Sequence record: MN518894.2
Source: Escherichia virus LS2
Direction: 5' to 3' (one strand)
DNA length: 39,197 bases
In this document: positions 5,840 through 35,924 of the stretch, piece by piece
Position numbering within the stretch: the stretch's first letter is position 1
Layout: every line of letters begins with the position of its first letter
Notes under the pieces: model-generated
What the model was told of the DNA's origin: nothing
The model's database searches: none
Seen by the model: the letters and a program-made list of their open reading frames with translations, nothing else
Program-made: the position numbers and the translations under genes

Positions 5840-5842
5840 CCC

Positions 5843-6343: not shown

Positions 6344-6395
6344 GTCGACGTACGTACGTACGTACGTACGTACGTACGTTGCATGCATGCATGCA
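6344..6395. repeat. GTCGAC followed by (ACGT)8 (6348-6379) and (TGCA)4 (6380-6395)
   Basis: Perfect tetranucleotide periodicity; alternating purine-pyrimidine, fully self-complementary; contains SalI, BsiWI, SnaBI, SphI and NsiI recognition sequences. Confidence 0.95.
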
Positions 6396-6950: not shown

Positions 6951-7999
6951 CAACTATCAAAACCAACCCGCATCGCGCTGTAGATTACTCTGAGTCAGGC
7001 GTTAAGAAAGCGCTTGAAGCTGCTGGGTCGCTGGAAGCCGAAGTGAAGTATGACGGTGTGCGGTTGAATATTCCGGTGATGCGCGAAGGTGAGAACTACT
7101 GGTTAAGCCGTGAGTCAAAAACGCTTCCGGCCTTAGACTGGGTCAACAGTGAGTCAGGACATGCATGCCGTGCGGCCGACTGGCGATGGTTCCTGAAGCA
7201 AGCAGGACATGAAGTCGTCGGTCTGCTGATTGACGGAGAGGTGCTGGTCAAGGGTGTAGACTTCAACACATCCTCAGGTCTTATCCGCACCATGTGGCTG
7301 ACCCCAAGCAACTACAAGTGCGCTGAAGGCTATCCAAGACGTGGCAACAAGGTCCCATTCCAGATAGCCCGGTTACTACTAAAAGTGGTCGTCTACGGGG
7401 TCATCGACCTTAACATCATCAACGACCCGAAAGCCGAAGGTCCTATCCATAGCGTCACACGCCTGAAGGCCGAAGCTATCGTCCCTCTCCTCCAGAAATA
7501 CTTCCCGGAAATAGACTGGGTTCTGTCTGAGTCATACATCGTGTTTGAGCTTGAGGAGCTTAACTACTTGTATGAAAAGAAGAGCCGAGAGGGCCATGAG
7601 GGTCTGGTGGTTAAAGACCCACTGGGACGCTGGAAGCGTGGCAAGAAGTCAGGTATGTTCAAGATGAAACCCGAAGAGGGCACGGACGGTACGTTGTACG
7701 GCCTGATATGGGGAACAGAAGGTCTAGCCAACGAAGGTATGGTCATCGGCTTTGACGTTATGCTTGAGAACGGGATGGAAGTGAACGCGTGCGGCCTGAC
7801 CGAAGAACAGAAAGATGAATTTACCGCGAGCGTGCTGAACTGGCGCAAAGGCCTGTGCAGCAGCACCATTTATGGCAACCCGTTTGCGGGCAACCAGGTG
7901 GAAGTGCTGTTTATGGAACGCTTTCCGGATGGCAGCCTGCGCCATCCGAGCTTTAAATGCTGGCGCGGCACCGAAGATAACCCGACCGTGAAAAGCTAG
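6947..7999 (+). CDS. gp1.3: ATP-dependent DNA ligase (T7 gene 1.3 homolog); true start ATG 6947 (MTTIKTNP...), C-terminal 73 codons recoded
   Basis: GGAGGA 7 nt upstream of ATG 6947; IKTNP N-terminus and C-terminal PDGSLRHPSF...RGTEDNP match T7 ligase. Confidence 0.93.
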   Translation: MTTIKTNPHRAVDYSESGVKKALEAAGSLEAEVKYDGVRLNIPVMREGENYWLSRESKTLPALDWVNSESGHACRAADWRWFLKQAGHEVVGLLIDGEVLVKGVDFNTSSGLIRTMWLTPSNYKCAEGYPRRGNKVPFQIARLLLKVVVYGVIDLNIINDPKAEGPIHSVTRLKAEAIVPLLQKYFPEIDWVLSESYIVFELEELNYLYEKKSREGHEGLVVKDPLGRWKRGKKSGMFKMKPEEGTDGTLYGLIWGTEGLANEGMVIGFDVMLENGMEVNACGLTEEQKDEFTASVLNWRKGLCSSTIYGNPFAGNQVEVLFMERFPDGSLRHPSFKCWRGTEDNPTVKS

Positions 8000-10992: not shown

Positions 10993-11128
10993 TCACCGGA
11001 AACATGGGACCATGAGTCCTATGGAAAGTCGTCATTTAGAATTGCGGAGTGACGAATGGCTAAATCGTATTAAGTATCAACAGCCGAGGGTCCACGTTCA
11101 GGTATGATCCACGACAACAAGGCTGAAG

Positions 11129-20848: not shown

Positions 20849-20849
20849 G

Positions 20850-20872
20850 ACTAAACTATCACTATAGGGAGA
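20850..20872 (+). promoter_or_regulatory. Phage-RNAP promoter (+1 near 20867), phi10 equivalent, closest to consensus
   Basis: gactaaactatcactata G ggaga. Confidence 0.85.
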
Positions 20873-20975
20873 CCAAGAGACAGACTCAAGGTTTCCCCTA
20901 TTACTTCAGTCCATACGGATTGGGCATACAGTAAGTAATAAACTTTATCTTTCAATTGAATAGGAGAATTATCAT

Positions 20976-22025: not shown

Positions 22026-22288
22026 TGACCTTCAAGACCCTCTCTACTGAGGGTCCTACCTTGGAAACCTGGAGTCCTGCAGTGGGTGTCAGTATTAAGG
22101 TTGACTTCCCTGAGCTGGCAGATGTGACCGACTGGTCTCTGCTGGATGTAACCATGCCGGATGGTGTGAGCTACTCTCGTAGAACCAACAGTCTCTACTT
22201 CAAGGCCACCGATGCTGTGACAGGTCTTGTAACTGTTGGATATGACGGGTCTACCGTTAGGTCATTCAACGTTTCGTTCACAAAATAA
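21998..22288 (+). other. gp10B: Putative -1 frameshift site G GTT TTC (21998-22004) and 94-codon -1 frame extension (minor capsid 10B); alternatively an independent 87-aa ORF from ATG 22025
   Basis: Same heptamer context as the end of T7 gene 10A; the -1 frame is open from 22004 to the stop at 22286-22288. Confidence 0.55.
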
Positions 22289-22294
22289 TTGAAA

Positions 22295-22331
22295 CCCCTT
22301 GGGTGCCTTCGGGTGCTTGAGGGAAATTTTT
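22295..22331 (+). terminator. Late terminator candidate (TPhi-like): hairpin with UUCG loop followed by T5
   Basis: cccttgggtgcc TTCG ggtgcttgaggg (7 Watson-Crick plus 5 G-U pairs) then aaattttt; located after gene 10 as in T7. Confidence 0.4.
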
Positions 22332-22346
22332 GCTTAAGGAGGGCCT

Positions 22347-22913
22347 ATGGCTCAATACATTCCACTGAACGCTACCGATGACTTAGATGCCATCAACGAT
22401 ATGTTAGCTGCTATAGGTGAACCAGCAGTCCTACAGCTTGACGAGGGTAACGCTGACGTCTCTAACGCACAACGTATCCTGCATCGTGTCAATCGTCAGG
22501 TCCAAGCTAAAGGCTGGAACTTTAACATCAACGAAGCTGCTGTCCTGACACCTGATGTCCAAGACAATAGGATTCGATTCCTTCCGTCTTACCTTCGTGT
22601 AATGACCGCTGGGGCCACCAGCTACTACAGCAACATGGGTGGATACCTGTACGACCTGTCCACTCAGTCAACCACTTTCACCGACCCTATAACGGTAGAG
22701 CTTGTTGAGATGAAACCGTTCTCTGAGATGCCTGTGGTATTCAGGGACTACATCGTTACCAAGGCCAGCCGTGAGTTCAACGCTAAGTTCTTCGGTAGCC
22801 CAGAGTCTGAACTGTACCTTCGTGAGCAGGAAGCAGAGCTCTATCAGCAGGTCATGGAATACGAGATGGACACTGGTCGATACAACATGATGTCCGACAT
22901 CGGGAGGGACTAA
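22347..22913 (+). CDS. gp11: Tail tubular protein A (T7 gp11 homolog)
   Basis: 188-aa ORF at the conserved position. Confidence 0.9.
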   Translation: MAQYIPLNATDDLDAINDMLAAIGEPAVLQLDEGNADVSNAQRILHRVNRQVQAKGWNFNINEAAVLTPDVQDNRIRFLPSYLRVMTAGATSYYSNMGGYLYDLSTQSTTFTDPITVELVEMKPFSEMPVVFRDYIVTKASREFNAKFFGSPESELYLREQEAELYQQVMEYEMDTGRYNMMSDIGRD

Positions 22914-23140
22914 TGGCTAGTCACAACCTGAAGATTCACCGCCAGCACTTTGGTCCGGTACAACTAGGTCCAAAGACAGCAGAGCTGAGACTTAACGACA
23001 GGGACTTTAAGGTTGGCGATTGGCTTATCCTGAATGAGTGGGACAACGGGTATACTGGGCAACAGGTAGCACGTAAGGTTGTCCATGTGGCTGACGTTGG
23101 TGACATCGCTGAAGGATACGTCCTAATCAGTATGATTTAA
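22913..23140 (+). CDS. Small PUA/ASCH-like protein (DUF3850-type, 75 aa) inserted between tail genes 11 and 12
   Basis: Motif KIHRQHFGPVQLGPKTAELRLNDRDFKVGDWLIL resembles DUF3850 from memory; no T7 counterpart at this position. Confidence 0.6.
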   Translation: MASHNLKIHRQHFGPVQLGPKTAELRLNDRDFKVGDWLILNEWDNGYTGQQVARKVVHVADVGDIAEGYVLISMI

Positions 23141-23149
23141 GGAGGGCCT

Positions 23150-25507
23150 ATGCCACTTATCACACAAAGAATAAAAAATCTTAAAGGTGGAATTAGCCAG
23201 CAGCCTGACATACTGAGGTTCTCAGACCAAGGCGAGGCGCAGGTTAACTGCTGGTCATCAGAGAGTGATGGCCTCCAGAAGCGTCCACCTACAGTCTTCA
23301 AGCGACGTCTTAACATCGACGTTGGGAGCAACCCTAAGTTCCACCTGATTAATCGTGACGAGCAGGAGCAGTACTATATAGTGTTCAATGGGTCCAACAT
23401 TCAGGTAGTTGACTTGAGCGGTAATCAATACTCAGTGTCCGGTGCGGTAGACTACGTTAAGTCCTCCAACCCACGAGATGACATCCGTGTCGTTACCGTG
23501 GCAGACTATACGTTCGTCGTTAACCGTAAGGTTGTCGTCAAAGGTGGAAGCGAGAAGTCACACTCTGGTTATAACCGTAAAGCACGAGCTTTAATTAACC
23601 TGCGTGGTGGGCAGTATGGTCGAACCCTTAAAGTGGGAATCAACGGTGGCGTTAAGGTCTCGCATAAGCTACCAGCAGGTAATGATGCCGAGAATGACCC
23701 ACCTAAGGTGGACGCTCAAGCCATTGGGGCAGCTCTGAGAGACCTTCTTGTTGCTGCTTACCCTACCTTCACGTTCGACCTTGGGTCTGGCTTCCTGTTA
23801 ATCACTGCCCCTTCAGGGACTGACATTAACTCAGTGGAGACGGAGGATGGTTACGCTAACCAGCTAATCAGCCCAGTACTCGACACAGTGCAGACAATCT
23901 CTAAGTTACCTCTTGCAGCTCCAAATGGGTACATCATTAAGATTCAAGGTGAGACCAACAGTAGCGCCGATGAATACTACGTGATGTATGACTCCAATAC
24001 TAAGACGTGGAAGGAGACAGTTGAGCCGGGAGTTGTCACTGGGTTCGACAACACCACAATGCCACATGCTCTGGTAAGACAGTCTGACGGCTCCTTTGAG
24101 TTCAAGACTCTGGATTGGTCCAAGCGTGGTGCTGGTAACGATGACACAAACCCTATGCCTAGCTTCGTGGATGCTGCGATTAATGATGTGTTCTTCTACA
24201 GGAACAGGCTAGGGTTCTTGTCTGGTGAGAACGTAATCATGAGCCGTTCAGCCAGCTACTTTGCGTTCTTCCCTAAGAGTGTGGCGACACTGAGTGATGC
24301 TGATCCTATTGATGTAGCTGTAAGTCACCCTCGAATCTCAATCCTTAAGTATGCCGTTCCGTTTAGCGAGCAGCTACTACTTTGGTCGGATGAGGTTCAG
24401 TTCGTGATGACAAGCTCTGGGGTCCTTACCTCGAAGTCTATCCAGCTTGATGTAGGCTCAGAGTTTGCCCTAGGTGACAATGCCAGACCGTTCACTGTAG
24501 GACGCTCAGTCTTCTTCTCAGCTCCTCGTGGGTCATTCACCAGTATTAAGCGATACTTCGCTGTAGCTGATGTATCTGATGTGAAGGATGCAGATGATAC
24601 AACTGGTCACGTACTGTCCTACATCCCTAACGGGGTGTTTGATATTCAAGGTACAGGTACTGAGAACTACATCTGCGTCAACTCTACAGGTGCATACAAC
24701 CGAATCTACATCTACAAGTTCTTGTTTAAGGACGGAGTACAGCTTCAAGCCTCTTGGTCACACTGGGAGTTCCCTAAAGATGATAAGATTCTGGCGTCTG
24801 CTTCTATTGGCTCTACCATGTTCATCGTTCGTCAGCACCAAGGAGGGGTAGACATTGAGCACCTTAAGTTCATCAAGGAGGCAACTGACTTCCCCTCAGA
24901 GCCATATAGACTACACATTGACTCCAAGGTGTCTATGGTAATTCCAATTGGCTCATATAATGCTGACACCTATAAGACTACGGTTGACATTGGTGCTTCT
25001 TATGGTGGCAACGCTCCGTCTCCCGGTCGGTACTATCTGATTGACAGTCAGGGTGCTTATGTGGACCTTGGGGACTTGTCCAGTATCTCTACTGTGATTA
25101 CCCTCAACGGCGATTGGTCAGGACGTACAGTGTTCATCGGACGGCCCTATCTGATGTCCTACAAGTTCTCACGGTTCCTGATTAAGATTGAAGATGATAG
25201 TGGCACTCAGTCTGAAGACACTGGTCGTCTACAGCTTCGTCGGGCTTGGGTCAACTACAAGGACACTGGCGCTCTGAGACTAATTGTCAGAAACGGTGAG
25301 CGGGAGTTCGTGAATACCTTCAACGGGTACACACTTGGTCAGCAAACCATAGGGACTACAAACATTGGTGACGGGCAGTATCGCTTCGCTATGAATGGTA
25401 ACGCATTGACCACGAGTCTAACCTTAGAGTCCGACTATCCTACCCCAGTGTCAATCGTTGGTTGTGGCTGGGAGGCGTCATACGCTAAGAAAGCTCGTTC
25501 CGTTTAA
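23150..25507 (+). CDS. gp12: Tail tubular protein B (T7 gp12 homolog)
   Basis: 785-aa ORF at the conserved position. Confidence 0.93.
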   Translation: MPLITQRIKNLKGGISQQPDILRFSDQGEAQVNCWSSESDGLQKRPPTVFKRRLNIDVGSNPKFHLINRDEQEQYYIVFNGSNIQVVDLSGNQYSVSGAVDYVKSSNPRDDIRVVTVADYTFVVNRKVVVKGGSEKSHSGYNRKARALINLRGGQYGRTLKVGINGGVKVSHKLPAGNDAENDPPKVDAQAIGAALRDLLVAAYPTFTFDLGSGFLLITAPSGTDINSVETEDGYANQLISPVLDTVQTISKLPLAAPNGYIIKIQGETNSSADEYYVMYDSNTKTWKETVEPGVVTGFDNTTMPHALVRQSDGSFEFKTLDWSKRGAGNDDTNPMPSFVDAAINDVFFYRNRLGFLSGENVIMSRSASYFAFFPKSVATLSDADPIDVAVSHPRISILKYAVPFSEQLLLWSDEVQFVMTSSGVLTSKSIQLDVGSEFALGDNARPFTVGRSVFFSAPRGSFTSIKRYFAVADVSDVKDADDTTGHVLSYIPNGVFDIQGTGTENYICVNSTGAYNRIYIYKFLFKDGVQLQASWSHWEFPKDDKILASASIGSTMFIVRQHQGGVDIEHLKFIKEATDFPSEPYRLHIDSKVSMVIPIGSYNADTYKTTVDIGASYGGNAPSPGRYYLIDSQGAYVDLGDLSSISTVITLNGDWSGRTVFIGRPYLMSYKFSRFLIKIEDDSGTQSEDTGRLQLRRAWVNYKDTGALRLIVRNGEREFVNTFNGYTLGQQTIGTTNIGDGQYRFAMNGNALTTSLTLESDYPTPVSIVGCGWEASYAKKARSV

Positions 25508-25531
25508 CTTATTGAATGGCCTATAGATTTA

Positions 25532-25554
25532 CCTTAACTATCACTATAGGGACT
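25532..25554 (+). promoter_or_regulatory. Phage-RNAP promoter (+1 near 25549), phi13 equivalent, bracketed by a 12-bp inverted repeat
   Basis: accttaactatcactata G ggact; inverted repeat aatggcctatag (25515-25526) / ctataggccatt (25553-25564). Confidence 0.75.
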
Positions 25555-25583
25555 ATAGGCCATTAAGGTTATAAGGAGACTTT

Positions 25584-26054
25584 ATGTATATTCGTAAAGC
25601 TACGGAACCGGATGTCCACTACTTTCTGTGGCATCTTTCAGCAGATGATGTTAATGAGTGCAAAGCAAACTACGGGTCAACCGTTGGTCTCTCTGAAAGA
25701 CTGCTTAAGCACCTATCTCCGTCATCTGTGGTTTTAACGAACGGTGTAGGCGAAGTGTTTGCCTATGGTGGAAACCAAGGGGATAACGTATGGTTCTTGA
25801 CTTCAGGTCTGGTCAACAAGCTGAGACCTAAAGAGAAGCGAGAGTTCATAAAGCGTATCTCTGAGTACAGGGACTTAATGTTAGACCAATACGGGACCAT
25901 CTGGAACTACGTGTGGTCAGGCAATAAGTCTCACATTAAATTCTTGAAGTTGCTTGGGGCTAAGTTCCATGATGATTGGACTATCAGCCCGGTAACTGGT
26001 GAGCGTTTTCAATTATTCACTATCTCTAAGGAGGACGTATGTGTGAACCCGTAA
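25584..26054 (+). CDS. gp13: Internal virion protein gp13-like
   Basis: Positional equivalent of T7 gene 13. Confidence 0.7.
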   Translation: MYIRKATEPDVHYFLWHLSADDVNECKANYGSTVGLSERLLKHLSPSSVVLTNGVGEVFAYGGNQGDNVWFLTSGLVNKLRPKEKREFIKRISEYRDLMLDQYGTIWNYVWSGNKSHIKFLKLLGAKFHDDWTISPVTGERFQLFTISKEDVCVNP

Positions 26055-26626
26055 GTATCGGCATGGGTATCATGGCTGTAGCCGGGGCCACTATGTCCGC
26101 TCCCAGACAGGCCAAGGCCGAAGGCGCAGCAATTGACTCTCAGAACCGACAGGCTCAGGAAATGGTTAAGCAGATGAACTACTCTGACGCCAACCTGAGG
26201 ATGCAGGAGCGAGACCTGAAGGAACAGCAGATGGCTGAACTGACAGAGACCACGCTAAACGGTATCCGTAATCAGGGTATGGTCCGAGCTGCGGTGGCTG
26301 AGTCCGGTCTGGAAGGTAACTCTATGGACAGGATTGAACGTCAGGTCGAAGGAGATACAGTCAAGGAGCGAGCAAGGATTACCGAAAGTTACAACCGCGA
26401 CTATGCGGCTATCTTCGGGAACCGTATCGCCAACATTGAGAACACCAAGTCTGCTATCCGTGGTCAAGGTAAGATCATCAAGACCAGTCCGCTGGCCCAT
26501 GCACTTAATGTTGCAAGCGCCGGGATGCAGGGGTACGCTGCTGGTAAGTCAATCTCTGGAGCATCAAGCTCTGGTGGTGCTGCACCGATTAGTGCTGCTA
26601 AAGGCACACCTACAGGTCATAGCTAA
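26039..26626 (+). CDS. gp14: Internal virion protein A (T7 gp14 homolog)
   Basis: MC... N-terminus and SMDRIERQVEG...ESYNRDYAAIFG match T7 gp14. Confidence 0.9.
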   Translation: MCEPVSIGMGIMAVAGATMSAPRQAKAEGAAIDSQNRQAQEMVKQMNYSDANLRMQERDLKEQQMAELTETTLNGIRNQGMVRAAVAESGLEGNSMDRIERQVEGDTVKERARITESYNRDYAAIFGNRIANIENTKSAIRGQGKIIKTSPLAHALNVASAGMQGYAAGKSISGASSSGGAAPISAAKGTPTGHS

Positions 26627-26637
26627 GAGGAGGACTA

Positions 26638-28920
26638 ATGGCTAGTAATATTGAATCAGCTCTGGCTAATCGGACTATTGGTCGTGGCAGAGCGCCTGGT
26701 AAAACTATCGCCGTCAACTATCAAGCAGCCAGCGTTCAGGCTCCAACTGGTGACTCCGGTCTGGCTCGTGCGTTAACTAACTTCGTTGAGTCTGGGACAG
26801 GATTGTACAAGCAGTTCAAGGACGAGGAGAAGACCAGAGCTGACGAGCGGTCTAACGAGATTATCCGTAAGCTGACTCCTCAGCAAAGACGTGAGGCTAT
26901 CCAGAACGGCACATTGCTGTATCAGGATGACCCTTACGCTATGGAAGCACTTCGAGTCAAGACTGGTCGTAATGCTGCCTTTGCTGTAGACGACGAGATT
27001 AACGTTAAGATTCAGAACGGTGAGTTCCGTACACGTCAGGACATGGAAGAGTATCGCCACCAGCGACTTCAGGACGCCGCTAAGTCCTATGCTGAAGAGG
27101 CAGGTATTAACCCTACAGACGAGTTCTTCCAGCGTGGGTTCAACGATAACATCACAGACCGCAACATCGCTATCTACGGGTCATTCAATAAGTATTTCAG
27201 CAAGCAGTCTGAAGAGACAGCAATGTTGAACACTCGTATTGAGATGAACTCGTTCCTTAACGATGGGGACCTGATGCGTTCGCCTGAGTCTGGAAAGACC
27301 TTCATGGCCTACCTTCGGGATGGACTAACGACTGCCGCTATCCCTTCGGACCAGCGAGCACGAGAGGTAATTACCCAGACGGTACGTGACGCAATCCAGA
27401 AGTCTGGAGGCTCAAACTTCCTACAGCAAGTGCGAGGAGAGCGAATCACCCTTAATGGTGTGGACGCTACAGTCGAAGAGATTGTAGGACCTGATGTCTT
27501 CAACGCTGCTATTGTTGAGGCACAAGGAACTGAGTACAAGCTGGTGGCTAAGTATCAGGAAGACTTAGCGTTAGGCGTTCAGTCTGCGATTCTTCAGGAT
27601 GACCCAACCATTGGTCTTTCCCAGATTCAGAAACTCAAGGAGCAGAACAACCTGCTTCAGCCGGGTGAAGAACTAACGCCTCAGCGTCAGATGCTTATTA
27701 ATGCCGAAGCCAGCTTACTGGAAGCGGTCAAGCGTAAGTCTGCTGAACAGGCAAAGGAGAACACTAAGTTAATCCAGACCCAGAACAAGCAACTGGTCAT
27801 CGACCAAGTTTATCAGCGACGTCTGGCTGGGGACAACGTGTCCACCAACTATGAGGACCTTCCGGTCTCTGAAGCTACAGGAGAGTTCAAGCGTTCAGAC
27901 ATGAACAACTATGCGTCTGCCAAGCTACATCAGATTGACCAGATGGACATCCCTGAGGCTGCTAAAGACGCACAGAAGGTGGCATTGTTAAGGGCTGACA
28001 CTAACAATGGTCCGTTCCGTAATGCCTTCCAGACGCTGACTCAGGACGCTGCTGGTGAGTGGCAAGCTGCGGTCATCCGTGGGCAGTACGACCCAGACAA
28101 GATGCAACGCTTCGAATCTCTTCGTCGTGCCTACACTCAGGACCCTTCAAGTTTTGCTGCTCTGTATCCCGACCAAGCTCAGTTGTTCTCTACGTTCGAC
28201 CAGATGGACAAGATGGGTCTGGACCCTCAGACGATGATTGAAGCTGATAAGCAAGCTGCAAGTCAAAGCCGTGAGATGCGCATGGAGTCAGACAAGGCGT
28301 GGCAGGAGTTGAAGAATGACTCCAAGAATAAGGACCTTTCGCGTCTTCCTACGTCTCTGGACGCAAGTGCTCGTAAGGTCTGGGACTCATGGTACTATCG
28401 TACAGGTAACGCTGACGCTGCAACGCAGCAGACTCAACGCTGGCTGAATGAGAACACCGTAACGTTCCAGTCTGAAGGTTCTGACGGTAAGTCCGTCGGC
28501 ATGGTGTCCAAGCACCAGCTTATGGTCGGGGATAACCCAGAGTCGTGGCAGGTTGGTCGAGACATTATCGACACCGCTCGTAAGCAGCTCATTAAGGCCA
28601 ACCCTTGGGTAGTGAACTCTCAGTTGTCCGTTGTTGAACAGAACGGCTCTATCTTCCTCCAAGACGCTACAGGAACTATTCGTATTCGGTACGATAAAGA
28701 ACTTGTAGGTAAACTCTACCGCGAACAACAGCAGAAGGCACAAGATGCCGCATACGCTCAGGCAGAACGTGACGCTAACAAGCGAGCGCGTATAGTCGGT
28801 ACTAAAGCTGCTGGTGACAAACGTCGAGCTGACCGAGAGGCCAACATCGAGAAGCGCGGTGGGATGTATAATGACGTCTCACTGGAGGGTATCGCAAACG
28901 TACTAATTGGTAAGGAGTAA
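26638..28920 (+). CDS. gp15: Internal virion protein B (T7 gp15 homolog)
   Basis: ADERSNEIIRKLTPQQRREAIQNGTLLYQDDPYAMEALRVKTGRNAA is near-identical to T7 gp15. Confidence 0.95.
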   Translation: MASNIESALANRTIGRGRAPGKTIAVNYQAASVQAPTGDSGLARALTNFVESGTGLYKQFKDEEKTRADERSNEIIRKLTPQQRREAIQNGTLLYQDDPYAMEALRVKTGRNAAFAVDDEINVKIQNGEFRTRQDMEEYRHQRLQDAAKSYAEEAGINPTDEFFQRGFNDNITDRNIAIYGSFNKYFSKQSEETAMLNTRIEMNSFLNDGDLMRSPESGKTFMAYLRDGLTTAAIPSDQRAREVITQTVRDAIQKSGGSNFLQQVRGERITLNGVDATVEEIVGPDVFNAAIVEAQGTEYKLVAKYQEDLALGVQSAILQDDPTIGLSQIQKLKEQNNLLQPGEELTPQRQMLINAEASLLEAVKRKSAEQAKENTKLIQTQNKQLVIDQVYQRRLAGDNVSTNYEDLPVSEATGEFKRSDMNNYASAKLHQIDQMDIPEAAKDAQKVALLRADTNNGPFRNAFQTLTQDAAGEWQAAVIRGQYDPDKMQRFESLRRAYTQDPSSFAALYPDQAQLFSTFDQMDKMGLDPQTMIEADKQAASQSREMRMESDKAWQELKNDSKNKDLSRLPTSLDASARKVWDSWYYRTGNADAATQQTQRWLNENTVTFQSEGSDGKSVGMVSKHQLMVGDNPESWQVGRDIIDTARKQLIKANPWVVNSQLSVVEQNGSIFLQDATGTIRIRYDKELVGKLYREQQQKAQDAAYAQAERDANKRARIVGTKAAGDKRRADREANIEKRGGMYNDVSLEGIANVLIGKE

Positions 28921-28924
28921 CATA

Positions 28925-31900
28925 ATGGCGACTCGTGGTATTCGCAATAACAATCCGGGTAACATCCGGGTAAGTAAGGACCAATGGGAAGGAATGACTG
29001 GAGATGATGGCGCATTCGTCACCTTCGATAGTCCAGAGTCTGGCGTCCGAGCTTTAGGTAAAAACCTGCTGTCCTACGGTCGCCAAGGCTATGACTCCAT
29101 CGAGAAGATTATCAACCGATGGGCACCTCCTAACGAGAACGACACTAAGGCTTATATCGACTCAGTGGTGGCTGCAACTGGTATTCCAGCTACCCAGAGT
29201 CTCGACCTATCGAACCCGGACACCCTGTCTGCTCTGGCGCAAGCTATCAGCTTCCATGAGACAGGCTCCCGGTACAATCCTGAAGTCTATCAGAAGGGAG
29301 TCGAAAGAGCACTTAACGGCATTAGCCCAAAGACTCCACCAGTAAGCGCTAACGTATTTGACGCACTCACGGAAGGACTCAAGGCTAAACCTAAAGTAGC
29401 TCTGGGCGAGAACCTTCCGAACGCTGCTGGTCTGAACATTGAGGGTCAAGCATCTGAAGCTCCCAACGAATCGTTCGGTGAGATGTTCTATAAGTCTACT
29501 GGCGAGACCATGCAGGAACGAGAGGACCGCTCTACGTGGTTCGGTTTCGGTGAGGCTACAAAAGCTGAAGTGAAGAACTCTATGATCGGCGTGGCTATCC
29601 GCGCTGGTCAGACCGAGGACTCACTGGATGTCATTGGTGATGTTTTCAACCCGACACGCTGGAACAACCATAAGTGGTCCCGTGAGGAGCTGGACCAGAT
29701 TCGTAACGCTGGGGTCCTACCTCAGTATTACGGGGTCATTACTGGTGGCTCCCCTCAGAACCTGACCGAGCTTATTAACTTGGCGCTTGAGAACCAGAAG
29801 TTGGACCAAGAGAAGGCCAAGGCAGGGATTGGTGCTCAGTTAGCTGCTGGTGTGATTGGTGCTGGTGTAGACCCGCTGACCTACGTTCCTATAGCTGGAC
29901 AGGTTGGTAAAGGTGGTAAGCTGGTCAACAAGATGTTCACCGTGGCTGCTCAATCTGGAGCACTGTCTGGTGTGTCAGAGATGGCCCGTACCTCAGTGGC
30001 TGGTGGTGACGCTCATGTGGCTGAAGCTATCCTTGGTGGTGCTCTCTTCGGTGGAGGGATGACTGCTATCGCTGATGGTTTAGGCAGAGCCTTAGGTCGC
30101 AACACTAATGAGTTTGCTGGCCCAGCTACACGTCTGGAAGCTCGTGAGACCGCTCGTAACGTTGATGGTCAGGACCTGTCTCGTCTCCCTATTCAGGAAG
30201 GTGAGCAGACCTTTAGTCATCAAGGCGTTAAGTTCGCTGACGTTCCGAATGAGCCGGGTAGTGTACGACTTGAAGATGGATCAATCCTGATTGGTGAGAA
30301 CCCTCTTAACCCTAAGACACGTCAAGTCTTTGACGAAGTGATTGAGCCTGAACGTGCCGCTGCTGGTGTGAACCTTGGTGGGCTAACTGAGATTGGCCTG
30401 AAGCTGCTTCGGTCCGAGAACCCTGAGATTCGTGGAGTCGCTGCCGACTTAGTGCGTTCACCGACTGGTATGCAGTCGAGGGCCTCAGGTAAAATCGGGA
30501 CCACTGCGTCAGACGTATTCGAGAGACTTCGTGCTGTGGACCATCGGTTCTACAACGACATCGACGATGCTGTTACTGAGGCACTCAAGGACCCTTACTT
30601 CCAGACAGCATTCTGGCGAGACTCTGGCGCATTCCGTCAAGACATCTATCAGCGTGTGTCTATGGCTATCGAAGATGGTAGCGGAAACCTGAAGGCTGAA
30701 CTGACTACGGGAGAACTGAAAGTCTATGACCTGCTGAAGAACCAGTTCGACGCCAAGCGTGAGATGATGGAGAACCCAGCTATGTTTGGTCGCCAAGACG
30801 CTCAGTCTATCTTCCCGGGTAGCCGCTTCAAGGGGACCTACGTCCCTCATGTGTATAGCAAACAGATGAAGGAGCTGTACATCAAGGAGCTTGGGAGTCC
30901 AGAGGCGTTGCAGGAGGCCATCAAGAAGTCATGGTTGACCAGCTATGCGTCTCGACCTGAAGTCAAGAAACGCGTGGACGAGGCACTCTTAGAGGCTGAC
31001 CCTACGTTGACTCCAGAAGGACTTGCTGCTGCGGTCGATAAGTACGCCAACGATAAGGCTTACGGTATCTCTCACACCGAGCAGTTCGAACGTTCATCCG
31101 TAATGGAAGAGAACATCAACGGTCTGGTTGGTCTGGAGAACAACAGCTTCCTTGAGGCTCGTAACCTGTTCGATAGTGATATGTCAATCGTCCTGCCTAA
31201 CGGTCAGACCTTCAGTGTCAACAACCTGCGTGAGTGGGACATGGACAAGATTGTCCCGGCCTACAACCGTCGAGTTAATGGCGATATTGCTATCATGGCT
31301 GGTACAGGCAAAACCACGAAGGACATGAAGGACTTGGTTGAGACCATGATGAACAAGGCTGGGGATGACGGTAAGTTGAAAGGTGAGGTATCTACCTTAC
31401 GTGACACCTTGAAGATTCTCACCGGTCGTGCTCGACGTGATGGGGCTGATGATGCAGCCTTCGCTACAGTGATGCGTACAATGACAGACCTATCGTTCTT
31501 CGCTAAGAATGCCTACATGGGTGTTCAGAACTTAACGGAGATTGGTGGTATGCTGGCTCGTGGTAACGTTCGTGCAATGCTTCATGGAGTCCCGATGTTC
31601 CGTGACCTAGCCTTCCGTAACAAGAAGGTCGGAGCCTCAGAGATTAAGGACCTGCACAATGTTATCTTCGGTAAGGAACTTGATGACTCAATCCGTCCAT
31701 CTAAACAGGATGTCATTGACCGTCTGCGCTCCTATAGCGACTTAGGCCGCTGGGCAGCTACAGCTCTGGGGACTGCCAAGTATTACACTGGTGAACTTGC
31801 AGTACGCTCTCCGTTCACTAAAGTCCTCAACGGTACGACAAACTACCTGTTAGATGCTGGACGTCAAGGATTCCTGTCCGACATCGTGGAACATAGTCTG

Positions 31901-32812
31901 ACTGGCAGTAAGCGTCGGTTCGATGACCGCTGGCTTAAGACCGCTGGTATCTCCGACGAGCAGTGGAAGGGCATTAAGTCCCTAATCAGTGAGTCAGTGA
32001 CTCGAGGTCCAGACGGGAAGTATACCATCAAGGATAAGAAGGCGTTCAGTCAGGACCCAAGGGCTATGGACCTGTGGCGTATGGGTGACACCATCGCTGA
32101 CGAAACGTTACCCCGGCCCCACAAGCTGTCAAACATGGACGCCAAGGCTTATGGTCCTCTCGCTAAGACTGTCCTTCAGTTTAAGAACTTCGTCATCAAG
32201 TCCATCAATGGACGTACCATGCGAACCTTCTATAACGCCACGAAGAACAACCGAGCGATGGACGCTGCTCTGTCCACTGTGATCTCTATGGGTCTTGCTG
32301 GTATCTACTACATGGCTCAGGCGCATGTCAAGGCTTACGCTATGCAGGATGGTCGAGACCGTGACTACCTCAAGCAAGCTCTGGACCCGACGATGATTGA
32401 ATATGCAGCTCTATCACGTAGTTCACACCTTGGTGGACCACTTGGGGTAGCTAACATTCTGGGCGGAATCGCTGGGTATGAGGACACTAAGATGCTCCGT
32501 TCGTCTATCCTACCTCGTTCGCCTACAGAGAAGCCTGAACGTGCCATCGCGTATGGTGCGGCTACAAGTGACCCTGTTATGAATGTTGTTGGTAACTTCT
32601 TGGAGCAGGTTCCAGCTTTCGGATATGCTGCTAACGTTGGCGCTTCGGCTTACAACTTGGCTGGCTACCTCAAGGCTGATACTCGCGTCAACGAGCGTGA
32701 CTACATGACCGGGATGTATAATACGTTCCGTGAACTGGTTCCGAACGACCCAACTACCCAGAAGCTGTTGCTTGGAACGTTTGAGGAGCAAGGCATCCAC
32801 ATCAAGGACTAA
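28925..32812 (+). CDS. gp16: Internal virion protein C (T7 gp16 homolog) with a non-T7 N-terminal domain (about 190 aa)
   Basis: From about residue 190 co-linear with T7 gp16 (TRWN.H.W..EEL..IR, VTGGSP.NL, ARETARN, LVRSPTGMQS, NPAMFG, GTYVPHVY, EARNLFDSD, ILTGRARR); AAGGAG 7 nt upstream of ATG 28925. Confidence 0.93.
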   Translation: MATRGIRNNNPGNIRVSKDQWEGMTGDDGAFVTFDSPESGVRALGKNLLSYGRQGYDSIEKIINRWAPPNENDTKAYIDSVVAATGIPATQSLDLSNPDTLSALAQAISFHETGSRYNPEVYQKGVERALNGISPKTPPVSANVFDALTEGLKAKPKVALGENLPNAAGLNIEGQASEAPNESFGEMFYKSTGETMQEREDRSTWFGFGEATKAEVKNSMIGVAIRAGQTEDSLDVIGDVFNPTRWNNHKWSREELDQIRNAGVLPQYYGVITGGSPQNLTELINLALENQKLDQEKAKAGIGAQLAAGVIGAGVDPLTYVPIAGQVGKGGKLVNKMFTVAAQSGALSGVSEMARTSVAGGDAHVAEAILGGALFGGGMTAIADGLGRALGRNTNEFAGPATRLEARETARNVDGQDLSRLPIQEGEQTFSHQGVKFADVPNEPGSVRLEDGSILIGENPLNPKTRQVFDEVIEPERAAAGVNLGGLTEIGLKLLRSENPEIRGVAADLVRSPTGMQSRASGKIGTTASDVFERLRAVDHRFYNDIDDAVTEALKDPYFQTAFWRDSGAFRQDIYQRVSMAIEDGSGNLKAELTTGELKVYDLLKNQFDAKREMMENPAMFGRQDAQSIFPGSRFKGTYVPHVYSKQMKELYIKELGSPEALQEAIKKSWLTSYASRPEVKKRVDEALLEADPTLTPEGLAAAVDKYANDKAYGISHTEQFERSSVMEENINGLVGLENNSFLEARNLFDSDMSIVLPNGQTFSVNNLREWDMDKIVPAYNRRVNGDIAIMAGTGKTTKDMKDLVETMMNKAGDDGKLKGEVSTLRDTLKILTGRARRDGADDAAFATVMRTMTDLSFFAKNAYMGVQNLTEIGGMLARGNVRAMLHGVPMFRDLAFRNKKVGASEIKDLHNVIFGKELDDSIRPSKQDVIDRLRSYSDLGRWAATALGTAKYYTGELAVRSPFTKVLNGTTNYLLDAGRQGFLSDIVEHSLTGSKRRFDDRWLKTAGISDEQWKGIKSLISESVTRGPDGKYTIKDKKAFSQDPRAMDLWRMGDTIADETLPRPHKLSNMDAKAYGPLAKTVLQFKNFVIKSINGRTMRTFYNATKNNRAMDAALSTVISMGLAGIYYMAQAHVKAYAMQDGRDRDYLKQALDPTMIEYAALSRSSHLGGPLGVANILGGIAGYEDTKMLRSSILPRSPTEKPERAIAYGAATSDPVMNVVGNFLEQVPAFGYAANVGASAYNLAGYLKADTRVNERDYMTGMYNTFRELVPNDPTTQKLLLGTFEEQGIHIKD

Positions 32813-32830
32813 ACTATCACTATAGGAAAC
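32808..32830 (+). promoter_or_regulatory. Phage-RNAP promoter (+1 near 32825), phi17 equivalent
   Basis: gactaaactatcactata G gaaac. Confidence 0.8.
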
Positions 32831-32876
32831 GGGAGGCGCTACCATAGGTCTCCGTTTAAATCACAAAGGAGGCATA

Positions 32877-35576
32877 ATGTCCACGATTACACAATTCCCT
32901 TCAGGAAACACTCGTTACAGGATTGAGTTCGACTACCTAGCCAGAACGTTTGTTGTTGTTACGCTGGTGAATAGCTCTAACCCTGCCCTGAACCGTGTAC
33001 TGGAAGTTGGTCGAGATTACCGATTCCTTAATCCAACGATGATTGAGATGTTGGTTGACCAATCAGGTTTCGACATCGTTCGTATTCACCGTCAGACTGG
33101 AACTGACTTAGTGGTAGACTTCAGGAATGGCTCAGTGTTGACAGCTAGTGACCTGACCAATGCAGAGCTTCAGGCTATCCATATTGCAGAAGAAGGTCGA
33201 GACCAAACTGTTGACTTAGCGAAGGAATATGCCGATGCTGCTGGTAACTCTGCTGGCAACGCTAAGGATAGCGAGGACGAAGCACGACGAATCGCTGAGA
33301 GTATCAAGGCATCTGGTCTGCGAGGCTATATTACCCGTCGCTCCTTCGAGAAAGGCTTCAACGTTACAATATGGAACGAGGTACTGCTATGGGAAGAGGA
33401 TGGTGATTATTACCGATGGGATGGTGGACTGCCAAAAAACGTACCTGTTGGTTCAACTCCTGAAACGTCTGGCGGCGTTGGTTTGGGTGCGTGGGTTAGT
33501 GTTGGTGATGCGTCATTGCGCGCCCGGCCTGCCGAAAAACGTGCCGGTGGGCAGCACCCCGGAAACCAGCGGCGGCGTTGGCGCGATAACGGCGATCCGC
33601 GCGGCTGGGGCGCGATTGGCGATGGCGTGACCGATGATACCCTGGCGCTGCAGGCGTGCTTTGATACCGCGACCTGCGATATTGATCTGGGCGGCAAAAC
33701 CTATCTGGTGCGCAAAAACCCGACCCTGGCGGCGACCTATCCGAACGAACCGGATTTTAGCGATGGCAGCTATAACTATAGCCCGTGCCTGGCGCTGGTG
33801 GGCAAAAAAAACATTAAAATTCATAACGGCGCGCTGATTGTGGAAACCCATGGCCTGGATGCGATTAGCCTGATTGCGTGCGAACATGTGACCGTGGATC
33901 TGACCATTAAAGGCCCGGGCATTTTTCCGGCGATTGATACCCCGACCGGCTATGCGGAAAAAGGCGAAGCGAACTTTGGCTATGATAGCAGCCTGCTGCT
34001 GGCGCCGAACAACGCGCTGGATACCAGCGCGTATACCGGCGGCGCGTATGCGGGCGTGGCGGGCCAGTTTCCGAAATATAACGCGGATGGCAGCCAGGCG
34101 AGCGGCTGGCAGAGCACCTGGGGCACCTTTCTGGGCGGCTATATTGGCAGCTGGGCGTGCGGCGTGAAAGTGCAGCGCGCGTGCCGCGGCATTCTGATTA
34201 ACGATTGCGATATTAGCGGCTTTAACTTTGGCGCGGTGGGCATTGGCATTCGCAACACCGCGGCGGCGTATGGCGCGAGCGATTATACCACCGATGCGGA
34301 TATTCCGGATGGCGTGATGGTGATTAACACCCGCATTCGCAAATGCTATAGCGCGGGCATTTATGTGCTGAGCGGCTATCGCCTGAACTATATGGCGAAC
34401 AACATTGAAGATATTGGCCATCCGAACGGCAACGATGCGCTGAACGCGAGCTATGATCCGGGCTATGGCATTACCCATGGCCGCAACCGCCGCATTCGCA
34501 ACGTGACCATTACCGAAAACATGATTCGCAACTGCCGCCGCAAATGCATTGATTTTCATGGCGGCGGCCAGGCGATTATTGCGAAAAACCATTGCCTGGA
34601 ACATGGCGTGGTGGGCATTTATGCGAAATGCGGCCCGGGCTGGAGCCCGAACTATGAACCGTATAACCTGATTATTGCGGATAACTATGTGCGCAGCCGC
34701 GATGTGCCGGCGAGCGAAACCACCGGCCCGCTGATTGGCGCGAAATATACCCGCAGCATTGATGTGGGCGGCGGCGGCGAAGCGACCCAGGCGACCTATC
34801 CGGATCCGTTTGTGAAAATTCATAACAACTATTGCGAACTGCGCGCGTATGATGGCGTGGCGATTAGCACCGGCGCGGGCGATGATAACTATAACGTGTT
34901 TATGGATATTGATGTGAGCCATAACACCGTGGTGCTGAAATGCAACACCCCGAACAACTTTGCGGAAGGCATTGGCATTAACGCGGGCGCGGCGAGCAAC
35001 AAAGTGTATCGCGGCCAGCGCGTGAAACTGATTGGCAACAGCATTAAACAGCTGAACACCCTGAACCTGACCTATCGCAGCGCGGGCTATAAAATTCAGG
35101 GCATTCCGAAAAGCCTGATTATGCATGGCAACACCCTGGATCTGAACGTGAGCACCCAGAGCTGCAAACTGTGCGATTTTGTGATTGATAGCCGCATTAA
35201 CTATAGCTTTGAAGGCAACCAGGTGCTGAGCTTTAGCGCGCGCGATAGCGCGACCCTGCAGGAAGTGTGGCTGTATGATAACATGAAAATTACCCGCCCG
35301 GCGGCGGCGGCGGCGGCGACCATTAGCGGCAACCTGTTTCGCGGCATTTGGCAGGTGTGCATTGCGGGCACCGGCGATGCGTTTGGCGCGAAACAGACCC
35401 AGTTTGCGAGCACCGGCAGCGGCGGCACCGGCTTTGATGTGGTGCGCAGCGCGACCACCGGCTTTATTGCGACCTTTGGCATTGGCGCGAGCGGCCTGAT
35501 TGTGCCGGCGGTGACCCAGGAAAGCCAGGTGCAGATTAACCTGAAACTGGTGAGCAGCCTGGATAGCGTGGCGTAA
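32877..35576 (+). CDS. gp17: Tailspike / tail fiber (gp17 position): native T7-like N-terminal anchor (to about 33528) fused to a recoded pectate-lyase-like beta-helix (depolymerase-type) domain
   Basis: N-terminus resembles the T7 gp17 tail-binding domain (FDYLARTFVVVTL...); body contains WGAIGDGVTDDTLALQACF; single uninterrupted 899-codon ORF. Confidence 0.9.
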   Translation: MSTITQFPSGNTRYRIEFDYLARTFVVVTLVNSSNPALNRVLEVGRDYRFLNPTMIEMLVDQSGFDIVRIHRQTGTDLVVDFRNGSVLTASDLTNAELQAIHIAEEGRDQTVDLAKEYADAAGNSAGNAKDSEDEARRIAESIKASGLRGYITRRSFEKGFNVTIWNEVLLWEEDGDYYRWDGGLPKNVPVGSTPETSGGVGLGAWVSVGDASLRARPAEKRAGGQHPGNQRRRWRDNGDPRGWGAIGDGVTDDTLALQACFDTATCDIDLGGKTYLVRKNPTLAATYPNEPDFSDGSYNYSPCLALVGKKNIKIHNGALIVETHGLDAISLIACEHVTVDLTIKGPGIFPAIDTPTGYAEKGEANFGYDSSLLLAPNNALDTSAYTGGAYAGVAGQFPKYNADGSQASGWQSTWGTFLGGYIGSWACGVKVQRACRGILINDCDISGFNFGAVGIGIRNTAAAYGASDYTTDADIPDGVMVINTRIRKCYSAGIYVLSGYRLNYMANNIEDIGHPNGNDALNASYDPGYGITHGRNRRIRNVTITENMIRNCRRKCIDFHGGGQAIIAKNHCLEHGVVGIYAKCGPGWSPNYEPYNLIIADNYVRSRDVPASETTGPLIGAKYTRSIDVGGGGEATQATYPDPFVKIHNNYCELRAYDGVAISTGAGDDNYNVFMDIDVSHNTVVLKCNTPNNFAEGIGINAGAASNKVYRGQRVKLIGNSIKQLNTLNLTYRSAGYKIQGIPKSLIMHGNTLDLNVSTQSCKLCDFVIDSRINYSFEGNQVLSFSARDSATLQEVWLYDNMKITRPAAAAAATISGNLFRGIWQVCIAGTGDAFGAKQTQFASTGSGGTGFDVVRSATTGFIATFGIGASGLIVPAVTQESQVQINLKLVSSLDSVA

Positions 35577-35729
35577 GAATGCCTGTGGCTGGAAGCGGCG
35601 TTTCAGCGCCGCCGCTGCGAACGCATTGAAAGCCGCCTGACCGAACTGGAACTGATTATTAAAAAAGCGAAAGAAATTGAATCATAACAACTTTGGGTCA
35701 CGGACGACCCGCTTTAAACTGGAGGTTTT

Positions 35730-35924
35730 ATGATTGAGTTAGACTTCAAGAATGAGGTCCTTAAAGCCTCTCCTATAGTCGGGACCGCTGCGGCTGATGG
35801 TGCCAGTCGGTTCTTCTTTGGACTTACACTGAACGAATGGTTCTACGTTGCAGCTATCGCGTACACCGTTGTCCAGATTGGTGTGCTAGTCTACAAAACG
35901 ATTAAAGGAGGTGGTAAAACATGA
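35730..35924 (+). CDS. gp17.5: Class II holin (T7 gp17.5 homolog)
   Basis: SPIVGTAAADGASRFFFGLTLNEWFYVAAIAYTVVQIG matches the T7 holin. Confidence 0.9.
   Translation: MIELDFKNEVLKASPIVGTAAADGASRFFFGLTLNEWFYVAAIAYTVVQIGVLVYKTIKGGGKT

What the first reader, a model, noticed from the sequence alone, without database searches (positions are those of the whole stretch)
33529..35681. Tailspike body (2.15 kb) uses exactly one codon per amino acid and encodes a depolymerase-type beta-helix
From 33529 every residue uses a single codon (Leu CTG, Ala GCG, Gly GGC, Arg CGC, Ser AGC, Thr ACC, Pro CCG, Val GTG, Ile ATT, and so on), with essentially no synonymous variation over about 700 codons; the sole exception I see is one GTT. 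The upstream 217 codons of the same gene use mixed codons. No natural gene looks like this: it is the signature of in-silico reverse translation or a designed synthetic insert. The encoded domain carries the pectate-lyase-superfamily motif WGAIGDGVTDDT and long Gly/Asn/Ile-rich repeats, consistent with a capsule or polysaccharide depolymerase receptor-binding domain on a T7-type N-terminal anchor. Together this reads as a host-range module swap.
Basis: partly seen in the sequence, partly recalled or inferred. Interest (0 to 1): 0.8.

Follow-up and report, generated by a model that had tools for sequence, protein, structure and literature searches.

The report
Back-translated patch in phage LS2 record
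The one-codon-per-amino-acid tailspike block is real, but it is a computer back-translation of another phage's (Peacock) tail-spike protein pasted into the public genome record of Escherichia virus LS2, so it is a database artefact and neither natural biology nor good evidence of an engineered phage.

Summary
A run of 701 consecutive codons (33579-35681) uses one codon per amino acid; under this genome's own codon usage that has probability about 10^-360. Back-translating the phage Peacock tail-spike protein (QEG09711.1, residues 235-899 plus stop) with a fixed table reproduces window 33579-35576 exactly, 1998 of 1998 bases.

The window is the public record of Escherichia virus LS2. Its 899-aa ORF is exactly WFG77622.1, on a 39,197-bp contig.

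The "designed host-range swap" reading is not supported, for five reasons.
- The 5' junction (33525-33581) is a recoded copy of the protein's own residues 184-200, placed one base out of frame. It scrambles residues 217-234.
- The recoding runs through the stop codon for another 35 codons.
- A second patch (7781-7996) is an exact back-translation of the last 72 residues of the Peacock ligase.
- An (ACGT)8(TGCA)4 filler sits at 6348-6395.
- The sibling records LS3 and ECG4 have every frameshift-induced stop in their tailspike edited away.

The encoded protein is a genuine beta-helix tailspike on a T7-type anchor.

Verdict: in-silico editing of a deposited record. Biological interest is low; it matters for database curation.

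The parts
32877..35576 (+). Annotated tail spike ORF (899 aa), exactly WFG77622.1 'tail spike [Escherichia virus LS2]'. It is a chimera of native N-terminus, scrambled linker and Peacock body.
   Evidence: ORF list. Exact-sequence look-up, contig length 39197 = window length.
32877..33524 (+). Native N-terminal anchor (residues 1-216) with mixed codons. Contains the Phage_T7_tail domain (10-115) and the Tail_spike_N domain (152-211).
   Evidence: 99.3% nt identity to LS3 over window 32345-33524. Codon table. Pfam E 1.6e-15 and 1.3e-18.
33525..33581 (+). 57-nt junction: 'C', then 17 table codons GLPKNVPVGSTPETSGG (33526-33576) in the +1 frame, then 'GTTGG'. The 17 codons duplicate residues 184-200 of the same protein. 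Read in the ORF frame the junction gives the scrambled linker RPAEKRAGGQHPGNQRRRW, in place of Peacock's QISDPEGATKYPELQIARW.
   Evidence: Sequence, run scan, protein comparison with Peacock.
33579..35576 (+). Exact back-translation of Peacock tail spike QEG09711.1 residues 235-899 plus a TAA stop (the beta-helix tailspike body).
   Evidence: 1998/1998 bases reproduced. tblastn 100% over 664 aa. 76% nt identity to the natural Peacock gene, with 432 of 485 differences at third codon positions.
35577..35684 (+). 36 codons after the stop, the first 35 in table codons: ECLWLEAAFQRRRCERIESRLTELELIIKKAKEIE(S). This stretch overwrites a 3' segment that is conserved in LS3, U8 and Peacock. Residues 1-25 resemble the C-terminal end of the Kayfunavirus endosialidase chaperone domain.
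   Evidence: Run scan. tblastn 72% identity to U8, LI10P1 and ZCEC02 endosialidase C-termini, with residues 26-36 unmatched. Comparison of the 3' regions.
7781..7996 (+). Second back-translated patch: the last 72 residues of the DNA ligase, identical to the Peacock ligase C-terminus. The natural TAG stop follows.
   Evidence: Exact match of the back-translation. Three-way DNA alignment. Protein alignment.
6348..6395 (.). (ACGT)8(TGCA)4 placeholder-like filler inside a 93-nt block (6303-6395) that is absent from Peacock and 100% shared with the LS3 record.
33513..35126 (-). 537-aa antisense ORF, a by-product of the codon monotony and not a gene.
   Evidence: ORF list. Its composition is dominated by A/R/N/I/G/H/F, as expected from the reverse complements of the table codons.

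Best explanation
The block is a computational patch in a deposited database record, not a property of a phage.

The window is the GenBank record of Escherichia virus LS2. LS2 is a Kayfunavirus whose backbone is essentially identical to its sibling records LS3 and ECG4. In those siblings the tailspike body is an endosialidase-type gene riddled with 1-2-nt indels.

In LS2 the interval 33525-35684 (2160 nt, exactly the length of the corresponding Peacock interval) was overwritten with text made by reverse-translating protein sequence with a one-codon-per-amino-acid table. By my own knowledge, that table is the most frequent E. coli K-12 codons. The overwritten interval consists of:
- a misplaced, frame-shifted copy of the protein's own residues 184-200;
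- Peacock tail spike residues 235-899 plus the stop;
- 36 further codons resembling an endosialidase C-terminus.

The same procedure patched the ligase C-terminus.

Shown: the exact back-translation identity, the identity of the record, and the other in-silico edits in this record and its siblings.

Inferred: the motive was to restore intact ORFs in a low-quality assembly, using Peacock as the template. Also inferred: the real LS2 virion probably carries an endosialidase-type tailspike like LS3 and ECG4 (about 60% likely) rather than a Peacock-type one.
For: 1. Back-translation of Peacock residues 235-899 plus stop equals window 33579-35576 at 1998/1998 bases. The Peacock ligase tail equals window 7781-7996.
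2. The chance under this genome's codon usage is 10^-360. There is no nucleotide hit in the phage records or the viral contigs. A natural gene for a 99%-identical protein uses natural codons: L008 is 99.5% nt identical to Peacock in the body, while the window is only 75%.
3. The ORF is exactly WFG77622.1, the ligase is WFG77598.1 and the ORF at 6687-6947 is WFG77597.1, all from Escherichia virus LS2 on a 39197-bp contig.
4. The junction is one base out of frame and duplicates residues 184-200. The recoding passes through the TAA stop for 35 more codons.
5. An (ACGT)8(TGCA)4 filler is shared with LS3. LS3 has a second (GACT)n(ACGT)n filler at the end of its tailspike.
6. In LS3 and ECG4, all 44 stops that the indels would create in frame are removed by point substitutions. 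In ECG4 these follow a fixed scheme: TGA>TCA x14, TAA>TAT x13, TAG>TAC x9.
7. The window and LS3 are 100% identical in most 250-nt bins on both sides of the block.
Against: - I could not read the LS2 GenBank record itself, its revision history, comments or raw reads. A guessed accession was not in the collection and no paper on LS2, LS3 or ECG4 was found.
- Who made the edits, with what tool and why, is therefore inferred.
- The odd 5' junction and the 36-aa tail are not explained by simple back-translation of any protein I could find.
- All major genes of the window are intact, so the genome is not obviously non-viable.
Confidence: 0.92

Rival explanations
1. LS2 (or a derivative) is a physically built engineered phage. 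A synthetic, recoded Peacock tailspike body was fused to the native T7-type anchor to retarget the phage from K1-type hosts to E. coli 4s-type hosts.
For: The architecture resembles a module swap: a native anchor (99.3% to LS3) plus a heterologous beta-helix body (100% Peacock). The ORF is open and all other major genes are intact. Peacock infects E. coli 4s, whereas the LS3/ECG4 body is endosialidase-like.
Against: - The junction is frame-shifted and scrambles residues 217-234.
- The recoding continues 105 nt past the stop and overwrites a conserved 3' segment.
- There is a second recoded patch in the ligase with no change of protein.
- Strict one-codon usage, including GCG x6 and GGC runs, is not what gene-synthesis optimisation produces (my knowledge).
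- The source names the organism Escherichia virus LS2 and it is an ICTV species.
- The sibling records show purely textual edits: stop scrubbing and ACGT fillers.
Confidence: 0.04
2. The patch is in silico but protein-accurate. The real LS2 naturally carries a Peacock-type tailspike (a natural module exchange relative to LS3/ECG4), and the submitters replaced an unreadable stretch with the back-translated best BLAST hit.
For: - The block has exactly the Peacock length, and the ORF aligns without gaps to Peacock from 32877 to 35700.
- Tailspike body exchange on near-identical Kayfunavirus backbones is common: the same body turns up in Enterobacter, Shigella and Salmonella phages.
- Natural Peacock-like phages exist (L008).
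Against: - The flanks are 100% identical to LS3, which carries an endosialidase-type body.
- The post-stop peptide resembles an endosialidase C-terminus, not the Peacock downstream sequence.
- The body has zero differences from Peacock over 664 aa, while the nearest natural relative differs at 5 residues and the rest of the genome is only about 92-96% identical to Peacock in nt. This shows copying, not measurement.
- Peacock also served as the template for the ligase patch.
Confidence: 0.25
3. It is a natural gene with extreme codon bias, for example through selection for translation efficiency.
For: None beyond the open reading frame.
Against: - The probability is 10^-360 under this genome's usage.
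- The bias starts and stops abruptly within one gene and continues past the stop codon.
- The natural genes for the same protein use mixed codons.
Confidence: 0

Closest known systems
Output of simple reverse-translation programs using an E. coli 'most frequent codon' table (for example EMBOSS backtranseq-type tools)
   Same: There is one fixed codon per amino acid (GCG CGC AAC GAT TGC CAG GAA GGC CAT ATT CTG AAA ATG TTT CCG AGC ACC TGG TAT GTG, stop TAA). It is exactly reproducible from a known protein.
   Different: The patch also contains a frame-shifted duplicate of upstream residues, a residual natural-looking GTTGG, and a 36-aa peptide with no exact source. A single clean program run on one protein would not give these.
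Escherichia phage Peacock tail spike QEG09711.1 (MK903279.1; host E. coli 4s)
   Same: The protein is 100% identical over residues 235-899. The ORF length (899 aa) and the interval length are the same.
   Different: Nucleotide identity is only 76%. The N-terminal 216 residues are LS2/LS3-type (20 substitutions relative to Peacock), and residues 217-233 (all but 228 and 231) are unrelated.
Engineered T7-family phages with swapped tail-fibre or tailspike modules (synthetic host-range engineering, known from the literature; my knowledge)
   Same: On paper, a native N-terminal adaptor is joined to a heterologous receptor-binding body.
   Different: There is no clean in-frame junction. The recoding spills beyond the ORF, unrelated genes are also patched, and the organism is named as an ordinary phage species.
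Right-handed parallel beta-helix phage tailspikes (Det7 gp208, HK620, Sf6, LKA1 gp49, phi297 gp61)
   Same: The predicted fold of the body matches these at Foldseek probability 1.00, E 6e-8 to 1e-5. Pfam Beta_helix is above its cut-off.
   Different: Sequence identity is only 8-13% and TM-scores are 0.26-0.45. The substrate and the catalytic residues are unknown.
Kayfunavirus endosialidase tailspikes (K1F type; for example vB_EcoP-U8 QOI58473.1)
   Same: The N-terminal anchor is homologous. The post-stop peptide resembles their C-terminal chaperone end. The siblings LS3 and ECG4 carry a damaged copy.
   Different: The body in the window is not an endosialidase.

Membership tests
In-silico reverse translation | Every amino acid is encoded by one and the same codon throughout. 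| tested here: met
   662/662 codons in ORF codons 238-899, and a 701-codon run at 33579-35681.
In-silico reverse translation | A source protein exists whose table-based back-translation reproduces the DNA exactly. | tested here: met
   Peacock tail spike 235-899 plus stop gives 1998/1998 bases. The Peacock ligase last 72 aa give window 7781-7996.
In-silico reverse translation | No natural nucleotide-level counterpart exists, and differences from the natural gene are synonymous. | tested here: met
   No megablast hit and no exact 57-mer in the viral contigs. Identity to the natural Peacock gene is 76%, with 432 of 485 differences at the third position.
In-silico reverse translation | The codon chosen is the most frequent one of a reference organism (E. 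coli K-12). | not testable with these tools
   The table matches the E. coli K-12 highest-frequency codons from my own knowledge. No codon-usage table was available to the tools.
Engineered host-range module swap | A heterologous receptor-binding body sits on the native adaptor. | tested here: met
   The N-terminus is 99.3% nt identical to LS3. The body is 100% Peacock.
Engineered host-range module swap | A clean in-frame fusion at a domain boundary. | tested here: not met
   The 57-nt junction holds a +1-frame duplicate of residues 184-200, and residues 217-234 are scrambled.
Engineered host-range module swap | Synthetic sequence is confined to the swapped coding module. | tested here: not met
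   The recoding continues 35 codons past the stop. There is a second patch in the ligase and an ACGT filler at 6348-6395.
Engineered host-range module swap | The record is declared synthetic, or the construct is shown to exist physically. | not testable with these tools
   The sources name the organism Escherichia virus LS2, species Kayfunavirus LS2. No paper was found. No reads were available.
T7-type tailspike with beta-helix depolymerase body (protein level) | An N-terminal Phage_T7_tail adaptor domain. | tested here: met
   PF03906, E 1.6e-15, residues 10-115. PF18668 Tail_spike_N, E 1.3e-18, residues 152-211.
T7-type tailspike with beta-helix depolymerase body (protein level) | A right-handed parallel beta-helix body. 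| tested here: met
   PF13229 scores 27.8 bits against a cut-off of 25.9. The AF2 model has pLDDT 84.5 and pTM 0.88 and is all-beta. Foldseek matches phage tailspikes and GH28/GH110 enzymes.
   PF12708 was not reported at E<=0.1. Only PF12218 End_N_terminal was found, at 19.4 bits, below its 26.3 cut-off, over residues 246-283. Homologues P0060 and P0083 carry precomputed PF12708 hits.
T7-type tailspike with beta-helix depolymerase body (protein level) | Polysaccharide-degrading activity and a known substrate. | not testable with these tools
   The only information is the Peacock host, E. coli 4s.

The most novel reading that the evidence does not exclude
LS2 is a phage that was really built. 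A fully recoded Peacock tailspike body was synthesised and recombined into an LS3-like K1-type Kayfunavirus, and the oddities (scrambled linker, recoded tail after the stop) are tolerated design errors. The record would then document a viable chimera with a junk 18-residue linker between adaptor and beta-helix.
Probability: 0.03. Interest if true: 0.35.

Novelty: not a real feature. Interest (0 to 1): 0.2.

Why it matters
There is nothing new biologically. The tailspike is the already deposited Peacock protein and the codon pattern is software output.

It matters for data integrity:
- A public record that serves as the named isolate of an ICTV species (Kayfunavirus LS2) contains fabricated nucleotide sequence. 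So, in other ways, do its siblings LS3 and ECG4.
- The resulting chimeric protein has propagated into NCBI and UniRef (WFG77622.1, UniRef100_A0ACD4QLL8).
- Host-range prediction, receptor-binding-protein classifiers, codon-usage or recombination analyses, and genome language models trained on such records would all learn artefacts from them.

A simple scan for runs of single-codon usage and for (ACGT)n fillers would flag such records.

Tried and rejected
- Natural extreme codon bias: rejected (10^-360; abrupt borders; continuation past the stop).
- A feature planted only in this window copy: rejected, because the exact 899-aa chimeric protein, the ligase and LS2_13 are public NCBI/UniRef entries on a contig of the window's length.
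- The window-specific blocks being reversed or complemented copies of LS3 or Peacock sequence: no such matches.
- The other blocks that differ from LS3 and Peacock (6685-6932, 7997-8172, 15843-15971) also being synthetic: rejected. They resemble natural Kayfunavirus genes (ST1749 homologue, HNH endonuclease remnant at about 75%, hypothetical gene at about 90%). Block 10985-11125 had no match among the 15 records listed.
- Recoded runs in LS3, Peacock or the ECG4 segment: none.
- Literature on LS2, LS3 or ECG4: nothing found.
- Guessed accession MN518892: not in the collection.
- The look-up of encoding contigs for the window protein: not on record.
- Sequence search of the PDB: only a weak 25-residue match to a beta-1,3-glucanase. 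The fold search was needed.
- NCBIfam: no family.
- Scans of metagenome and genome contigs for the recoded DNA: not run, because the answer was already overdetermined.
Full report
**1. The observation**

The ORF 32877-35576 (899 aa) is the gene-17-type tail protein of a T7-like genome. Codons 1-217 use mixed codons. Codons 238-899 use exactly one codon per amino acid, 662 of 662.

I scanned both strands and all frames for runs of the 21 table codons (GCG CGC AAC GAT TGC CAG GAA GGC CAT ATT CTG AAA ATG TTT CCG AGC ACC TGG TAT GTG TAA). The longest run is 701 codons at 33579-35681. Eight large genes of the same genome use these codons only 31% of the time, so the probability of the body is 10^-360. 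GC3 jumps from 0.30-0.50 to 0.60-0.80.

- In the ORF frame the monotony begins at 33579, not 33529. ORF codons 218-234 are mixed.
- The ORF ends at TAA 35574-35576, and the last 105 nt of the reported block lie after the stop.

**2. What the block is**

Megablast of 33529-35681 against 50,697 phage records finds nothing. An exact 57-mer is absent from the IMG/VR contigs. At the protein level, residues 236-899 are 100% identical over 664 aa to the tail spike of Escherichia phage Peacock (MK903279.1, QEG09711.1).

The decisive test was to back-translate Peacock residues 235-899 plus the stop with the fixed table. This reproduces window 33579-35576 at 1998 of 1998 bases.

The natural Peacock gene is only 76% identical in nucleotides, and 432 of the 485 differences fall at third codon positions. 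An independent natural contig (Logan SRR13318105, L008) encodes a 99%-identical protein with natural codons. It is 99.5% nt identical to Peacock in the body, while the window is 75%.

**3. Where the window comes from**

An exact-sequence look-up shows that the 899-aa ORF is WFG77622.1, 'tail spike [Escherichia virus LS2]'. The ligase is WFG77598.1 and the ORF at 6687-6947 is WFG77597.1 (LS2_13). All lie on a contig of 39,197 bp, which is the window length. Kayfunavirus LS2 is a species in the NCBI/ICTV taxonomy.

The nearest records are Escherichia virus LS3 (MN518893.2) and ECG4 (MN218775.2), both from Indian sewage, at 99.7% over 20000-33500. In a three-way alignment, LS2 and LS3 are 100% identical in most 250-nt bins and differ only in a few local blocks. 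Against LS3, the replaced interval is window 33525-35684 (2160 nt) versus LS3 33680-35738 (2059 nt). The window aligns without gaps to Peacock from 32877 to 35700, so the patch was built to Peacock's length.

**4. Why this is an in-silico patch and not an engineered swap**

(a) The 57-nt junction (33525-33581) consists of 'C', a recoded copy of the protein's own residues 184-200 one base out of frame, and 'GTTGG'. In the ORF frame it reads RPAEKRAGGQHPGNQRRRW, where Peacock has QISDPEGATKYPELQIARW.

(b) After the TAA stop the table codons continue for 35 more codons (ECLWLEAAFQRRRCERIESRLTELELIIKKAKEIE). Its first 25 residues are 72% identical to the C-terminal end of Kayfunavirus endosialidases, with mostly conservative substitutions, and the last 11 match nothing. 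This stretch overwrites a 3' segment that LS3, U8 and Peacock all conserve.

(c) A second patch, 7781-7996, is the exact back-translation of the last 72 residues of the Peacock ligase, and it leaves the protein unchanged.

(d) At 6348-6395 the window holds (ACGT)8(TGCA)4. This lies inside a 93-nt block that is absent from Peacock but 100% shared with LS3. LS3 has a further (GACT)n(ACGT)n filler at the end of its tailspike.

(e) In LS3 and ECG4 the tailspike body is an endosialidase-type gene (about 91% to vB_EcoP-U8, 93% to LI10P1). It carries some 20 one- or two-base deletions and three larger ones, yet frame 0 is open for 877 codons. Restoring the U8 bases while keeping the indels creates 44 in-frame stops, and every one of them is removed by a point substitution. 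In ECG4 the substitutions follow a fixed scheme: TGA>TCA x14, TAA>TAT x13, TAG>TAC x9.

(f) Where LS2 has its ligase patch, LS3 has an unrelated 51-nt segment of the same length. LS3 is then 100% identical to Peacock across the ligase 3' end and the adjoining downstream sequence, although the rest of the ligase is only 76-80% identical. This suggests that Peacock served as the repair template for both records.

Taken together, the three sibling records were edited as text to yield intact ORFs. In LS2 the tailspike was replaced by a back-translated Peacock protein.

**5. What the encoded protein would be**

- Pfam finds Phage_T7_tail (10-115, E 1.6e-15), Tail_spike_N (152-211, E 1.3e-18) and Beta_helix (480-606, 27.8 bits against a cut-off of 25.9). 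The WGAIGDGVTDDT region gives only a sub-threshold End_N_terminal match.
- PHROGs hits are tail fibre and tail spike families, mostly over the N-terminus. NCBIfam finds none.
- An AlphaFold2 model of the body, built from a 30-sequence alignment, has pLDDT 84.5 and pTM 0.88 and is all-beta.
- Foldseek against the PDB returns phage tailspikes (Det7 gp208, phi297 gp61, LKA1 gp49, HK620, Sf6) and GH110/GH28 enzymes, at E 6e-8 to 1e-5 with TM 0.26-0.45.
- Homologues occur in Enterobacter, Shigella and Salmonella phages and in Enterobacter hormaechei genomes (mostly annotated as beta-helix repeat proteins).
- Peacock was isolated on E. coli 4s (PMC6763663), so a surface polysaccharide of that strain is the likely substrate. 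That is inference.

**6. What remains open**

I could not see the LS2 record's history, its comments or any reads, and I found no paper. Who made the edits, and with what tool, is therefore unknown.

I think the real LS2 tailspike is endosialidase-type, because the flanks are identical to LS3 and the post-stop peptide is endosialidase-like. A natural Peacock-type body is not excluded (about 25%). A physically built chimera is very unlikely (about 3-4%).

The origin of the frame-shifted duplicate and of the 36-aa tail is unexplained. They look like generated or hand-assembled text rather than the output of a single program run.

**7. Verdict**

The designed host-range swap is not supported. This is a database artefact: of low biological interest, but worth flagging to curators.

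Noticed in passing
window 7781-7996 (run of table codons 7775-7996): A second one-codon-per-amino-acid block lies in the DNA ligase C-terminus. It is the exact back-translation of the last 72 residues of the Peacock ligase, and the natural TAG stop follows.
   Followed up: yes
window 6303-6395 (filler 6348-6395); LS3 L004 6318-6410: An (ACGT)8(TGCA)4 placeholder-like filler, preceded by GTCG, sits inside a 93-nt block that is absent from Peacock and 100% shared between LS2 and the LS3 record. In LS3 it is translated as part of an annotated ORF (...RRTYVRTYVRTLHACMH*).
   Followed up: yes
L001 (LS3 MN518893.2 33032-35665) and L002 (ECG4 MN218775.2 33034-35667): The sibling records annotate an 877-aa 'peptidoglycan lytic exotransglycosylase' that is really an endosialidase-type tailspike with about 20 frameshifting indels. 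All 44 resulting in-frame stops have been substituted away (ECG4: TGA>TCA x14, TAA>TAT x13, TAG>TAC x9), which gives a junk but open frame.
   Followed up: yes
L004 (LS3) 35652-35688: A second filler, (GACT)3.8(ACGT)6, sits at the 3' end of the LS3 tailspike. It is a 27-nt insertion relative to phage U8.
   Followed up: partly
L004 (LS3) about 7800-7850, and the alignment bin covering the ligase 3' end and downstream (bin starting at window 7949): LS3 has a 51-nt segment of the same length but unrelated sequence (ARKPSTHGSAPHSGRTH) exactly where LS2 has its ligase patch. LS3 is then 100% identical to Peacock across the ligase 3' end and the adjoining downstream sequence, although the neighbouring ligase sequence is only 76-80% identical. 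This suggests copy-paste from Peacock.
   Followed up: partly
window 5826-6160: Segments that are 100% identical to the upstream 71-aa gene (5550-5765) are interleaved with pieces of the genes normally found here (Peacock 5843-5959 and 6005-6304). This gives a mosaic with no intact ORF, which looks like a mis-merge of two sequences.
   Followed up: partly
window 6687-6950: LS2_13 (87 aa) occupies the position of the dGTPase-inhibitor gene (gene 1.2) but is unrelated to the LS3 and Peacock protein. It is homologous to a hypothetical protein of phage ST1749, with frameshift-like differences: the matching peptide AKSLGLVVEHDWY is in another frame, and there are 33 gap openings in 1.6 kb.
   Followed up: partly
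window 7997-8192: A 176-nt block downstream of the ligase replaces the small gene found in LS3 and Peacock. It is about 75% similar to HNH endonuclease genes of other Kayfunaviruses and ends in a perfect 21-nt tandem duplication (TAATGTCAACCCAGTGGTCAT x1.9, at 8153-8192).
   Followed up: partly
window 33513-35126 (minus strand): A 537-aa antisense ORF (plus shorter ORFs in other frames) runs across the recoded block. It is a by-product of the restricted codon set and could be mis-called as a gene.
   Followed up: no
window 10985-11125 and 15843-16023: Two further blocks do not align to LS3 or Peacock. The second resembles a hypothetical gene of other T7-like phages (about 90%, with a deletion). 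The first had no match among the 15 records listed by the distant blastn search.
   Followed up: partly
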